From the NCBI RefSeq assembly GCF_036507355.1, contig NZ_AP027877.1: DNA of 64,000 bases; one strand, written 5' to 3'. Below, piece by piece: positions 12,001-15,000 of the stretch (position 1 is the stretch's first letter; the number at the start of each line of letters is the position of its first letter). The stretch is from Escherichia coli. Lineage in GTDB: Bacteria; Pseudomonadota; Gammaproteobacteria; Enterobacterales; Enterobacteriaceae. The position numbers are program-made.

Positions 12001-15000
12001 GATGAGGTGATCGCCGGGGTGCTGCCGGACGGTAAAGCCGAAGCGATTAAACGCCTGCAAAGTGAAGGACGTCAGGTGGCAATGGTGGGCGACGGCATTA
12101 ACGACGCGCCAGCGCTGGCTCAGGCGGATGTCGGCATTGCGATGGGTGGCGGCAGTGATGTTGCTATTGAAACCGCGGCGATTACCCTGATGCGCCATAG
12201 CCTGATGGGCGTTGCGGATGCGCTCGCTATTTCCCGCGCAACGCTGCGCAACATGAAGCAGAACCTGCTCGGCGCGTTTATCTACAACAGTATCGGTATT
12301 CCGGTCGCCGCCGGTATTTTGTGGCCGTTTACTGGAACGTTGCTTAACCCGGTAGTTGCCGGAGCGGCAATGGCGCTCTCGTCGATTACCGTAGTGAGTA
12401 ACGCCAACCGGTTGCTGCGGTTTAAACCGAAGGAATAAGTACATCATTGCGGATGCGCTGCTTTAGGGTGGCGCATTTGGCATCGACGCATGACTGCCGG
12501 ATGCGGCGTGAACGCCTTATCCGGCCTACGGTTCAGGCACAGGTTTGTAGGCCTGATAAGACGCGTAAGCGTCGCATCAGGCAATGGTGCTCGGATGCCG
12601 GATGCGGCGTGAACGCCTTATCCGGCCTACGAGATGAAGCGATGTTTTGGCCTTACGCGACCTTTTTTGCACGCTCTTCACGGCGTGCCAAATATTCAGC
12701 CACTGTTTCAATCCGTCCCAATTCTTCCTGGGTGCGCATGTTGTTTTCAACTTCCCAAAGATCAACTGCCGCCTGGAGGTTTAGCCAAAAATCGACTGTG
12801 GTATCAAAAAATTTCGCCAGACGGAATGCCATTTCAGTGGTGAGTTTACGATTATTATTGATCAGTGTACTGACGCTATTACGATGAACATGCAGCAACT
12901 CTGCTAACTCATTGATTTTCAAAGCGAGCGGTTCCAGATATTCATAGAGAAGAATATCTCCGGGTGTCGTCGGTTTTCTTGTTGCCTGTTTCATAGTTTT
13001 TAACTGTTGCTTCCCTGTGAATAGCGATACAAGAACATACTGAATCATACAAACACATTAAACAAGTCCCCAACTCCATTTGCGCCATCCCTCACCGCGC
13101 GCTAGCATGATATTTCACAAAGGGAGGTCGTATGGATCTGTTGTACCGGGTAAAAACGCTTTGGGCCGCGCTGCGCGGTAATCATTACACCTGGCCTGCC
13201 ATCGATATCACCCTTCCCGGCAATCGCCATTTTCATCTGATTGGCAGTATTCATATGGGTAGCCACGATATGGCTCCCCTGCCCACCCGTTTGCTCAAAA
13301 AGCTCAAAAACGCCGATGCGCTGATCGTCGAGGCGGATGTTTCCACCAACGATACGCCTTTTGCTAATTTGCCTACTTGCGAGGCGCTGGAAGAGCGCAT
13401 TAGCGAGGAGCAACTCCAAAAACTGCAGCACATTAGCCAGGAGATGGGCATTTCTCCCTCACTCTTTTCTACCCAACCGCTGTGGCAAATCGCGATGGTT
13501 CTTCAGGCGACGCAGGCACAAAAACTGGGGCTGCGGGCAGAATACGGTATCGATTACCAGCTATTGCAGGCGGCGAAGCAACAACATAAACCCGTGATTG
13601 AACTGGAAGGGGCGGAAAACCAGATTGCCATGTTGCTCCAGCTCCCTGACAAAGGACTGGCGCTGCTGGACGATACGCTGACCCACTGGCATACCAACGC
13701 ACGGTTGCTGCAACAAATGATGAGCTGGTGGCTGAATGCGCCGCCGCAAAATAATGAAATAACGCTGCCCAATACGTTCAGTCAGTCGCTGTACGATGTG
13801 CTGATGCATCAGCGAAATCTCGCCTGGCGGGATAAATTACGCGCCATGCCGCCGGGGCGATATGTGGTCACGGTCGGTGCACTACACCTGTATGGAGAAG
13901 GGAATTTGCCGCAAATGTTGCGCTAAAAAAATGGCCAATATCGCTATTGGCCCGTCAAAGAGGAATTTCATTTTTTTATTATTATGCCGTCACTTTAAGC
14001 GACGGTGTAACTCGATTGTCGCTCAATCTCACCATCCTGCCAATACTCTTAGGCAAGATGACTCTTTTTTTTGGACCGCCATCAGGCGTATGCTTGCTTC
14101 GTTTTTTTGTTTAAGGCAGGAAAATTACCATGACACCCGCAGTTAAATTACTCGAAAAAAACAAGATTTCGTTTCAAATCCATACCTACGAGCACGATCC
14201 GGCTGAAACCAATTTTGGCGATGAAGTCGTCAAAAAATTAGGTTTGAATCCGGATCAGGTCTACAAAACGCTGCTGGTGGCAGTGAACGGTGATATGAAA
14301 CACCTTGCCGTGGCCGTTACGCCGGTCGCAGGTCAACTGGACCTTAAAAAAGTAGCAAAAGCGCTGGGTGCCAAGAAAGTTGAGATGGCCGATCCGATGG
14401 CCGCGCAGCGTTCGACGGGGTATCTGGTAGGGGGGATTAGCCCACTGGGGCAGAAAAAACGTCTGCCAACGATTATCGACGCCCCTGCACAAGAATTTGC
14501 CACTATTTATGTTTCCGGCGGTAAGCGCGGGCTGGATATCGAACTGGCGGCAGGCGATCTGGCGAAGATCCTCGATGCCAAATTTGCTGATATCGCCCGC
14601 CGCGATTAAGCATTGTGCCGGATGCAAATATCCGGCACTTTCGGATTACTGCCAGCTCACCTCACCTTTCGGTTCATAAATACTCACATCCAGCGGCGAG
14701 CTTTTCTGGATATACGCTTTCAGCACTTCGGCATCAATAAAGCCGGTATTCACATAGCCCGGTTTGTTATCAAGGCGCGGATAGCCATCACCGCCGGTGG
14801 CATTGAAATTTAATGTCGCCATACGGTAAGTTTTCGCTGGATCGACCGGTTCGCCTTTGATTTTCAGGTCGTTCAGTTTGCCGTCTTTCGCCACAAAGCT
14901 AACGTTGGCAAATTGCGGGTAGGCACCTGAATCTGGCTTCATCTGCGCGACGGCGGTCAGGTAATCAATCACCTCTTTACCAGTCATGTCGGCATACACC

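What the first reader, a model, noticed from the sequence alone, without database searches (positions are those of the whole stretch)
12496..12630. REP/BIME clusters mark several junctions in this region
Canonical REP sequences (GCCGGATGCGGCGTGAACGCCTTATCCGGCCTAC and its inverted partner) occur after copA (12496..12630), after ybaL (19685..19767), after ybaM (31051..31150), and in degenerate hairpin form after queC (56272..56296). They are expected for E. coli but are useful anchors for strain comparison and potential sites of rearrangement.
Basis: seen in the sequence. Interest (0 to 1): 0.15.

Follow-up and report, generated by a model that had tools for sequence, protein, structure and literature searches.

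The report
Ordinary E. coli REP/BIME repeat clusters
Three gaps between convergent genes in this E. coli window hold textbook REP/BIME palindromic repeats that vary in copy number and attract insertion sequences in other strains; the fourth claimed site is only a single-copy hairpin, so the finding is real but ordinary.

Summary
The window, an E. coli chromosome segment, contains exactly seven canonical REPs in three BIMEs. Each BIME lies between convergent genes.

- **copA/ybaQ:** Y-Z2-Y at 12496-12630, a BIME-2.
- **ybaL/gsk:** Z2-Y at 19685-19768, a BIME-2.
- **rsmS(ybaM)/mscK:** Z1, a 35-nt L linker, then Y at 31052-31149, a BIME-1.

All seven are 0-2 mismatches from the consensus. Shuffled sequence gives no matches. 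Rfam naRNA4 scores the two BIME-2s above its gathering threshold.

The queC/fadM hairpin (56272-56296) is not a REP. It is a perfect palindrome with no GTAG foot and no stem mismatch, and it occurs once per genome.

The strain-comparison idea is borne out.

- The copA site holds 0, 1, 3, 5 or 9 REPs in other strains, changing in 101-bp steps.
- The rsmS site is empty in O157:H7 and O55:H7.
- IS1397 and IS621 sit inside these very REPs in two other strains.

The likely function is the known one: 3'-end hairpins that stabilise mRNA and attenuate read-through, plus gyrase and IHF binding. All of this is already known, so interest is low.

The parts
12496..12529 (+). Y-type REP, first unit of the copA-ybaQ BIME-2. 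It reads GCC...CTAC on the + strand and starts 57 nt after the copA stop codon.
   Evidence: 0 mismatches to the Y consensus. RNA hairpin -22.0 kcal/mol, z -3.5, with an internal mismatch. copA ORF 9934-12438.
12530..12546 (.). 17-nt tail-to-tail linker between Y and Z2.
   Evidence: Coordinates derived.
12547..12582 (-). Z2-type REP in inverse orientation. It contains an exact IS621 target, ATCAGGCCTAC, at 12547-12557 (-).
   Evidence: 2 mismatches to the Z2 consensus. Hairpin -21.9 kcal/mol, z -5.0. IS621 target match.
12583..12596 (.). 14-nt head-to-head linker between Z2 and Y.
   Evidence: The linker has the same length at site B.
12597..12630 (+). Y-type REP, third unit. It ends 22 nt before the ybaQ stop codon (12653-12655, - strand). 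Together with 12547-12582 it forms the 101-bp repeat unit and the Rfam naRNA4 match.
   Evidence: 0 mismatches. Direct repeat with 101-nt spacing. Rfam RF02564 at 12550-12627, 87.1 bits against gathering score 59.5. Hairpin -24.6 kcal/mol.
19685..19720 (-). Z2-type REP of the ybaL-gsk BIME-2, 34 nt after the ybaL stop codon.
   Evidence: 1 mismatch. Hairpin -15.3 kcal/mol, z -2.5. ybaL ORF 17974-19650. IS1397 sits in the loop of this REP in strain WP7-S18-ESBL-09.
19735..19768 (+). Y-type REP of the ybaL-gsk BIME-2, only 14 nt from the gsk stop codon (19783-19785, - strand).
   Evidence: 2 compensating mismatches, GCCAGAT...ATCTGGC. Hairpin -19.8 kcal/mol, z -4.6. Rfam naRNA4 at 19688-19765, 74.3 bits. 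gsk ORF 19783-21087.
31052..31080 (+). Z1-type REP (29 nt) of the rsmS(ybaM)-mscK BIME-1. It ends in an exact IS621 target, ATCAGGCCTAC, at 31070-31080.
   Evidence: 0 mismatches. Hairpin -13.2 kcal/mol, z -3.9. IS621 target. IS621 is inserted exactly at the CT of this REP in strain 7_33_46A.
31081..31115 (.). 35-nt long (L) tail-to-tail linker of the BIME-1, with an IHF-consensus-like ATTCAATATATTG at 31091-31103 (-).
   Evidence: Sequence. The motif has 1 mismatch to WATCAANNNNTTR, which is not above chance on its own. The linker itself recurs at a median of 4 places per E. coli genome.
31116..31149 (-). Y-type REP of the BIME-1, 60 nt from the mscK stop codon (31210-31212, - strand).
   Evidence: 1 mismatch. 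Hairpin -23.9 kcal/mol, z -4.7. mscK ORF 31210-34572.
56272..56296 (.). Not a REP. This is a locus-specific perfect 9-bp palindrome with a 7-nt loop, centred in the 51-nt queC-fadM gap, 14 nt from the queC stop and 12 nt from the fadM stop.
   Evidence: Sequence. -21.9 and -22.2 kcal/mol on the two strands. Median 1 place per genome, and at least 99% identical in 5343 of 5425 records. No T-run, so not called as a terminator. ORFs.

Best explanation
The three sites are canonical E. coli bacterial interspersed mosaic elements (BIMEs) built from REP palindromes. There are two BIME-2s (Y and Z2 REPs alternating in opposite orientation, with 14- and 17-nt linkers). There is one BIME-1 (Z1 and Y REPs tail-to-tail across a 35-nt L linker).

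Shown here:
- their sequence identity to the three REP types;
- the GTAG/CTAC foot;
- the imperfect stem;
- their genome-wide repetition;
- their extragenic position between convergent genes;
- their variability between strains.

Inferred from published work on the family:
- Each REP is transcribed at the end of both convergent mRNAs and folds into a stable stem-loop. That stem-loop blocks 3'-to-5' exonucleases and damps read-through, partly through Rho.
- As DNA, the BIME-2s are preferred gyrase sites and the BIME-1 linker binds IHF.
- The GTAG foot and the stem mismatch are what the REP-associated transposase (TnpA-REP/RAYT) recognises. This probably explains how the family spreads and persists.
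- Copy number changes in whole 101-bp Z2+Y units, most simply by unequal recombination or slippage between identical units.
- The REPs are also specific landing sites for IS1397 (in the loop) and IS621 (at ATCAGGC|CT|AC).

The queC-fadM hairpin is a separate, single-copy stem-loop. It most likely protects the 3' ends of both convergent mRNAs.
For: Sequence match: seven REPs at 0-2 mismatches from the Y, Z1 and Z2 consensus, against 0 expected in shuffles.

Defining features as stated by Ton-Hoang et al. 2012 (PMC3333891): a 30-40-nt imperfect palindrome, a GTAG foot, BIME-1 = z1+y with a long L linker often carrying an IHF site, BIME-2 = z2+y in tandem copies whose number varies between strains. 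All are seen here.

Rfam naRNA4, a model built on a REP325 Z2/Y pair, scores 87.1 and 74.3 bits against a gathering score of 59.5.

Stable hairpins: -13 to -25 kcal/mol, z -2.5 to -5.0.

Strain variation: 0, 1, 3, 5 and 9 REPs at copA-ybaQ in 101-bp steps. An evenly spaced sample of 59 chromosomes gives 10 with 5 REPs, 12 with 3, 14 with 1 and 14 with 0.

BIME-1 is absent from O55:H7 and O157:H7.

IS1397 lies in the Z2 loop at ybaL-gsk, and IS621 lies at the CT core of the Z1 tail at rsmS-mscK. The latter is the published natural IS621 target, ATCAGGCCTAC (PMC11208160).

Functional literature: REP325 acts as a partly Rho-dependent terminator and an mRNA stabiliser, and convergent gene pairs with a REP are more highly expressed (bioRxiv 10.64898/2026.03.23.713779). 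Gyrase cleavage sites are over-represented in BIME-2 (PMC6379681).
Against: No function was measured here for these particular copies. The published effects of REPs are context-dependent, and REPs do not uniformly change mRNA half-life.

The IHF-like motif in the L linker has one mismatch and is not above chance as a motif (50 found against 45 expected).

Gyrase enrichment was shown only for a subset of BIME-2s, and these two were not named.

Strains with 0 REPs at copA-ybaQ, or with no BIME-1 at rsmS-mscK, are common. The elements are therefore dispensable.
Confidence: 0.93

Rival explanations
1. The elements are selfish or neutral DNA. They would be spread by the REP-associated transposase and tolerated only in gaps between convergent genes, with no local function for these copies.
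For: They are dispensable. About a quarter of sampled genomes have no REP at copA-ybaQ, and about 28% lack the filled rsmS-mscK form (3881 of 5426 have it). The GTAG foot and stem mismatch, which TnpA-REP needs for binding and cleavage, are conserved in all seven copies.
Against: Published deletion and RNA-seq work shows local effects of REPs on termination and mRNA stability, and higher expression of convergent pairs that carry a REP. Alleles without a BIME keep a stronger native hairpin at the same place. That pattern suggests the BIME does some of the same job.
Confidence: 0.25
2. The BIME-2 pairs are genes for nucleoid-associated noncoding RNAs (naRNA4-like). Such RNAs would bind HU and bridge cruciform DNA to condense the chromosome.
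For: Rfam RF02564 (naRNA4) matches both BIME-2s above its gathering score. Qian et al. 2015 reported HU-dependent REP-REP contacts and nucleoid decondensation when REP325 is deleted (PMC4550694).
Against: The Rfam model is in effect a model of any Z2/Y REP pair, so a match shows family sequence and not function. [quoted passage not shown]
Confidence: 0.07
3. The queC-fadM hairpin (56272-56296) is a degenerate REP.
For: Its first 12 nt, GCCGGATGCGGC, equal the head of the Y REP. It also lies between convergent genes, as the true REPs do.
Against: It has no GTAG/CTAC foot. It is a perfect palindrome without the stem mismatch. It is 25 nt long rather than 29-36. It is single-copy per genome and nearly invariant (median 1 place; at least 99% identical in 5343 of 5425 records). 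The same head 8-mer occurs in the plain htpG terminator.
Confidence: 0.07

Closest known systems
E. coli BIME-2 (Y/Z2 REP arrays, e.g. REP325 between yjdM and yjdN)
   Same: Y and Z2 REPs alternate in opposite orientation with short linkers. They form a tandem 101-bp unit whose number differs between strains. Both copies match Rfam naRNA4.
   Different: Nothing structural differs. This window carries 3 REPs at copA-ybaQ where K-12 has 5, and the copA-proximal Y reads GTGAAC rather than GTAAAC. No complete genome in the collection has the exact 241-bp allele; the best is 99.6%.
E. coli BIME-1 (also called RIP/RIB elements; those alternative names are from memory)
   Same: Z1 and Y REPs lie tail-to-tail as a single copy, separated by a 35-nt L linker with an IHF-like core. 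The linker itself is repeated in the genome.
   Different: The IHF core has one mismatch to WATCAANNNNTTR, and IHF binding was not tested.
Intrinsic (Rho-independent) bidirectional terminators between convergent genes
   Same: They occupy the same position between convergent stop codons and form stable G+C-rich stems on both strands. Alleles without a BIME have such a hairpin at rsmS-mscK.
   Different: REPs and the queC hairpin lack the flanking A and T tracts. REPs are a dispersed repeat family, whereas terminators are locus-specific.

Membership tests
REP (palindromic unit) of E. coli, types Y/Z1/Z2 | Sequence matches one of the three consensus types. | tested here: met
   Seven copies at 0-2 mismatches, with 0 expected by chance. 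The queC hairpin matches none, even allowing 6 mismatches.
REP (palindromic unit) of E. coli, types Y/Z1/Z2 | A 30-40-nt imperfect palindrome with a mismatch in the stem (definition in PMC3333891). | tested here: met
   The predicted hairpins of the Y, Z1 and Z2 copies all show an internal unpaired position. Z1 is 29 nt. The queC hairpin is a perfect 9-bp stem, so it does not meet this feature.
REP (palindromic unit) of E. coli, types Y/Z1/Z2 | Conserved GTAG (or CTAC on the other strand) tetranucleotide at the foot of the stem. | tested here: met
   Present in all seven copies. Absent on both sides of the queC hairpin.
REP (palindromic unit) of E. coli, types Y/Z1/Z2 | High copy number, dispersed and extragenic. 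| tested here: met
   REP-containing queries hit a median of 34-35 places per genome in 5425 genomes, with the cap reached. All seven copies lie between stop codons. The queC hairpin has a median of 1 place per genome.
REP (palindromic unit) of E. coli, types Y/Z1/Z2 | Bound and cleaved by the REP-associated transposase TnpA-REP (RAYT). | not testable with these tools
   Biochemical feature. Only the required GTAG foot and stem mismatch were confirmed in the sequence.
BIME-2 | Y and Z2 REPs in inverse orientation with short linkers, in tandem copies whose number varies between strains. | tested here: met
   Site A is Y-17nt-Z2-14nt-Y, and other strains hold 0, 1, 3, 5 or 9 REPs in 101-bp steps. 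Site B is Z2-14nt-Y.
BIME-2 | Preferential binding and cleavage by DNA gyrase. | not testable with these tools
   Known for the family (PMC6379681). These two loci were not looked up in the Topo-seq tables.
BIME-1 | Z1 and Y REPs, single copy, separated by a conserved long L linker. | tested here: met
   Z1 31052-31080, a 35-nt linker, then Y 31116-31149. The linker alone finds a median of 4 places per genome.
BIME-1 | IHF binding site in the L linker. | tested here: inconclusive
   ATTCAATATATTG at 31091-31103 (-) has 1 mismatch to WATCAANNNNTTR. The motif is not enriched over chance in the window (50 found against 45 expected). IHF binding was not tested.
Rfam RF02564 naRNA4 | Covariance-model score at or above the curated gathering score. 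| tested here: met
   87.1 bits (12550-12627, -) and 74.3 bits (19688-19765, -) against 59.5. HU binding is not testable here.
Intrinsic terminator (considered for the queC-fadM hairpin) | G+C-rich stem-loop followed directly by a T-run. | tested here: not met
   No terminator-like site was called at 56272-56296 on either strand. The flanks are ACCACAAAATG on the + strand and GACACCCGGAAT on the - strand.

The most novel reading that the evidence does not exclude
At two of the three sites, alleles without a BIME keep a strong locus-specific bidirectional hairpin between the convergent genes, while alleles with a BIME carry weakened versions of it.

- At copA-ybaQ the native hairpin is -24.0 kcal/mol (z -4.3) in the BIME-free strain. 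In this window it is -19.9 kcal/mol (z -1.9).
- At rsmS-mscK the BIME-free strain has an A-tract/hairpin/T-tract terminator of -21 kcal/mol. In this window there are two degenerate copies of it flanking the BIME-1.

On this reading, BIMEs have taken over the 3'-end function and selection on the native terminator has relaxed. That would give a natural allelic series for measuring what REPs do.
Probability: 0.3. Interest if true: 0.3.

Novelty: already known. Interest (0 to 1): 0.1.

Why it matters
For annotation it matters little, because REP/BIME elements have been known in E. coli for about 40 years and these loci match the K-12 layout.

The practical value is modest.
- The copA-ybaQ BIME-2 is a variable-number marker with 0-9 REPs. 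Equal counts can arise independently, so it is a poor phylogenetic character.
- The window holds two exact natural IS621 (bridge-recombinase) target sites.
- REP-rich gaps like these can confuse short-read assembly.

The contrast between filled and empty alleles could serve as a natural experiment on REP function.

Tried and rejected
- Tandem Repeats Finder did not report the 101-bp period, because only about 1.3 copies are present. The repeat finder did report it.
- A fuzzy-regex REP scan skipped adjacent copies. I replaced it with an exhaustive Hamming scan.
- The MG1655 RefSeq record, as served by the tool, lists no REP features, so the official REP numbers could not be read.
- The RepRanger supplement held as text has no entry for these gene pairs.
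- The IHF consensus scan is uninformative as a statistic.
- I considered whether the queC hairpin is an intrinsic terminator and rejected it, because there is no T-run.
- I considered whether the GCCGGATG 8-mers at 19660 and 24082/24100 are extra REPs. The first is at most an unprovable vestige. The second is the htpG terminator.
- I did not scan the metagenome, viral or GTDB collections, and I ran no protein or structure searches. None of them bears on a known non-coding repeat.
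Full report
**What is in the sequence.** Reading the four stretches and scanning the whole window shows exactly seven canonical REP units. I used the Y consensus, a degenerate Z2 pattern and an exhaustive Hamming scan against the Y, Z1 and Z2 consensus sequences.

| Site | Flanking genes | REP units (window coordinates, strand, mismatches) |
|---|---|---|
| A | copA / ybaQ | Y 12496-12529 (+, 0); Z2 12547-12582 (-, 2); Y 12597-12630 (+, 0) |
| B | ybaL / gsk | Z2 19685-19720 (-, 1); Y 19735-19768 (+, 2, compensating) |
| C | rsmS(ybaM) / mscK | Z1 31052-31080 (+, 0); Y 31116-31149 (-, 1) |

Shuffled sequence gives 0.00 expected matches. No other REP exists in the window even allowing 6 mismatches.

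**Where the window comes from and what flanks the sites.** The window is an E. coli chromosome segment, reverse-complemented relative to K-12 MG1655 at roughly 455-514 kb. It is 98.5-99.1% identical to K-12 over window 16213-64000 and 97.6% over 7417-12631. The gene names come from annotated hits and from the MG1655 record.

All three BIMEs sit between convergent genes.

| Site | Upstream gene (+ strand) | Downstream gene (- strand) |
|---|---|---|
| A | copA 9934-12438 | ybaQ, stop codon at 12653-12655 |
| B | ybaL 17974-19650 | gsk 19783-21087 |
| C | rsmS 30837-30998 | mscK 31210-34572 |

The gaps between each stop codon and the nearest REP are 57 and 22 nt at site A, 34 and 14 nt at site B, and 53 and 60 nt at site C.

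**Anatomy.**
- Site A is Y, a 17-nt tail-to-tail linker, Z2, a 14-nt head-to-head linker, then Y. That gives a 101-bp Z2+Y period.
- Site B is Z2, a 14-nt head-to-head linker, then Y.
- Both A and B fit the published definition of BIME-2. Site C is Z1 and Y tail-to-tail across a 35-nt linker, which is the BIME-1 layout. The definitions are in Ton-Hoang et al. 2012 (PMC3333891).
- Each REP folds as RNA into a stem-loop of -13 to -25 kcal/mol (z -2.5 to -5.0) with the characteristic internal mismatch. Adjacent inverse REPs can also pair with each other into longer hairpins of -46 to -81 kcal/mol.
- The L linker carries ATTCAATATATTG at 31091-31103 on the - strand, one mismatch from the IHF core. 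That motif alone is not above chance. The linker itself is nevertheless a repeated sequence, with a median of 4 places per genome.
- Rfam's naRNA4 model (RF02564), built on a Z2/Y pair of REP325, scores both BIME-2s above its gathering threshold: 87.1 and 74.3 bits against 59.5.

**The fourth site is not a REP.** Window 56272-56296 is a perfect palindrome, GCCGGATGC-GGCTTGA-GCATCCGGC, centred in the 51-nt queC-fadM gap.
- It shares only the 12-nt head of the Y REP.
- It has no GTAG/CTAC foot and no stem mismatch.
- It is single-copy: a 48-nt query finds a median of 1 place per genome and is at least 99% identical in 5343 of 5425 records.
- The same GCCGGATG...CATCCGGC design occurs in the plain intrinsic terminator after htpG at 24082-24107, which does have a T-run.
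- The queC hairpin is stable on both strands, at about -22 kcal/mol. It has no T-run on either side and is not called as a terminator.
- I infer that it is a locus-specific 3'-end stem-loop shared by both convergent mRNAs. Its stem lies 14 nt from the queC stop and 12 nt from the fadM stop.

Other strains carry the following at copA-ybaQ.

| REPs at site A | Example strains |
|---|---|
| 5 | K-12, JX21CE8 |
| 3 | this window, O157:H7 |
| 1 | MJ-T |
| 0 | Res13-Lact-ER01-35 |
| 9 | 2022CK-00450 |

The changes are always in 101-bp steps. Some strains lack ybaQ altogether.

An evenly spaced 60-row sample of the ranked hits, covering 59 chromosomes and one plasmid, gives the following.

| Class | Chromosomes |
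|---|---|
| 5 REPs | 10 |
| 3 REPs | 12 |
| 1 REP | 14 |
| 0 REPs | 14 |
| Alignment breaks at the end of the third REP | 3 |
| No ybaQ | 6 |

The broken-alignment pattern is the one seen for the 9-REP strain, but I did not resolve those three further.

No complete genome carries the window's exact 241-bp allele; the best match is 99.6%. The window has GTGAAC in both Y loops. O157:H7 and K-12 have GTAAAC in the copA-proximal Y. The window's nearest relative over the 2-kb copA-ybaP query, JX21CE8, has the 5-REP form. The 3-REP state has therefore probably arisen more than once. This is an inference.

**Strain comparison at sites B and C.** At site B, 5254 of 5426 genomes have the same layout. 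A minority has one REP of a different sequence instead. At site C, 3881 of 5426 genomes have the filled form, and O55:H7 and O157:H7 lack about 170 bp that include the BIME-1.

**Rearrangement sites.**
- In strain WP7-S18-ESBL-09, an IS1397 copy lies in the loop of the Z2 REP at ybaL-gsk.
- In strain 7_33_46A, an IS621 copy lies in the tail of the Z1 REP at rsmS-mscK. The junctions are ...ATCAGGCCT|TGTATT... and ...ACAGTATCT|ACACCG....
- That position is the CT core of ATCAGGCCTAC, the published natural target of the IS621 bridge-RNA recombinase (PMC11208160).
- The window itself holds two exact copies of that target, at 12547-12557 (-) and 31070-31080 (+). The chance expectation is 0.06.

**How the elements most likely work.** Nothing functional was measured here, so what follows rests on the literature for the family.
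- REPs have been assigned roles as transcription terminators, mRNA stabilisers, and binding sites for IHF, Pol I and gyrase. TnpA-REP needs the GTAG foot and the stem mismatch to bind and cut them (PMC3333891).
- Gyrase cleavage sites are over-represented in a subset of BIME-2s, mostly in Y units (PMC6379681).
- A 2026 preprint shows that REP325 acts locally as a partly Rho-dependent attenuator and as an mRNA stabiliser. It also reports that convergent gene pairs with a REP are more highly expressed, and it finds no support for chromosome compaction (10.64898/2026.03.23.713779). That weakens the earlier naRNA4/HU model (PMC4550694).
- REPs closer than 16 nt to a stop codon have been reported to lower translation (as summarised in PMC12306157). 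Only the gsk-proximal Y, at 14 nt, meets that rule among the seven.

I therefore favour bidirectional 3'-end hairpins with additional DNA-level protein binding. A neutral or selfish reading is the main rival, because the elements are dispensable in many strains.

**A small pattern worth noting.** At sites A and C the BIME-free alleles carry a stronger native hairpin in the same gap.
- After copA, the hairpin is -24.0 kcal/mol (z -4.3) in the 0-REP strain, against -19.9 kcal/mol (z -1.9) in this window.
- Between rsmS and mscK, the empty allele has an A-tract/hairpin/T-tract terminator of -21 kcal/mol. The window has two diverged copies of it, at 31008-31026 and 31180-31198, 172 nt apart, on either side of the BIME-1.

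With only two loci this is anecdotal. It is the most novel reading the evidence leaves open.

**Verdict.** Everything found is a known kind of element behaving as described in the literature. Novelty: already known. Interest: about 0.1.

Noticed in passing
L014 (NZ_CP074819.1) 2197-3573, orthologous to window 31052-31149: In strain 7_33_46A an IS621 (bridge-RNA recombinase IS) is inserted exactly at the CT core of ATCAGGC|CT|AC in the Z1 REP of the rsmS-mscK BIME-1. The window has two exact copies of this natural IS621 target, at 12547-12557 (-) and 31070-31080 (+).
   Followed up: yes
L013 (NZ_AP022207.1) 2050-3520, orthologous to window 19685-19720: In strain WP7-S18-ESBL-09 an IS1397 (IS3 family) is inserted in the loop of the Z2 REP of the ybaL-gsk BIME-2. 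It is flanked by GCCA and GCAA.
   Followed up: yes
window 31008-31026 and 31180-31198; L010 403-441: The BIME-1 region is bracketed by two diverged copies (74% identical, 172 nt apart) of a GGGG...CCCC hairpin. The BIME-free O55:H7 allele has a single strong bidirectional terminator (-21 kcal/mol) that aligns to both. Whether this reflects insertion with duplication, or deletion between repeats, is unresolved.
   Followed up: partly
window 12449-12479; L006 950-981: A locus-specific hairpin lies right after the copA stop codon. It is stronger in the BIME-free allele (-24.0 kcal/mol, z -4.3) than in this window (-19.9 kcal/mol, z -1.9).
   Followed up: partly
window 12653-13048 (ybaQ); L006 1374-1676: ybaQ is annotated as a HigA-family antitoxin and stands alone here. 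The one 0-REP strain I examined (Res13-Lact-ER01-35, L006) carries an adjacent RelE/ParE-family toxin gene between ybaQ and ybaP. Other strains lack ybaQ entirely.
   Followed up: partly
window 23235-23287; L001 42821-42979: The adk-hemH spacer differs from K-12. K-12 has about 104 extra bases with a CCCCTCACCCTAACCCTCTCCCCGAGGGGGCGAGGGGAC motif, possibly another small repeat family ('Box C'-like, a name from memory). The window has a different short hairpin there.
   Followed up: partly
window 1-7416: The left end has no K-12 counterpart beyond ybaT. As in strain GF3-3, it holds a TolC-family outer-membrane protein gene (5752-7107, -) and the end of a giant SiiEA/BapA-like adhesin gene with internal repeats.
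   Followed up: no
window 24082-24107: The htpG intrinsic terminator is a GCCGGATGAC...GTCATCCGGC hairpin followed by a T-run on the - strand (-22.3 kcal/mol, z -6.4). This shows that the REP-like head 8-mer occurs in ordinary terminators.
   Followed up: yes
window 19769-19782; 56258-56271; 56297-56308: The gsk stop codon is 14 nt from a Y REP. The queC and fadM stop codons are 14 and 12 nt from the single-copy hairpin. All three are inside the published limit of under 16 nt at which REPs near a stop codon are reported to lower translation.
   Followed up: no
window 62305-62400, 27688-27752, 13925-14008, 44556-44652: Expected Rfam matches elsewhere in the window: sraA, the DnaX frameshift element, sroB (ChiX) and 4.5S SRP RNA.
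   Followed up: no
window 19660-19684: GCCGGATG followed by ATGTAAAAT/ATGAAAAAT lies just upstream of the Z2 REP at ybaL-gsk. It may be a vestige of a further REP. The IS1397-bearing strain has GCCGGATAATAGGCGCGGATAT at this position.
   Followed up: no
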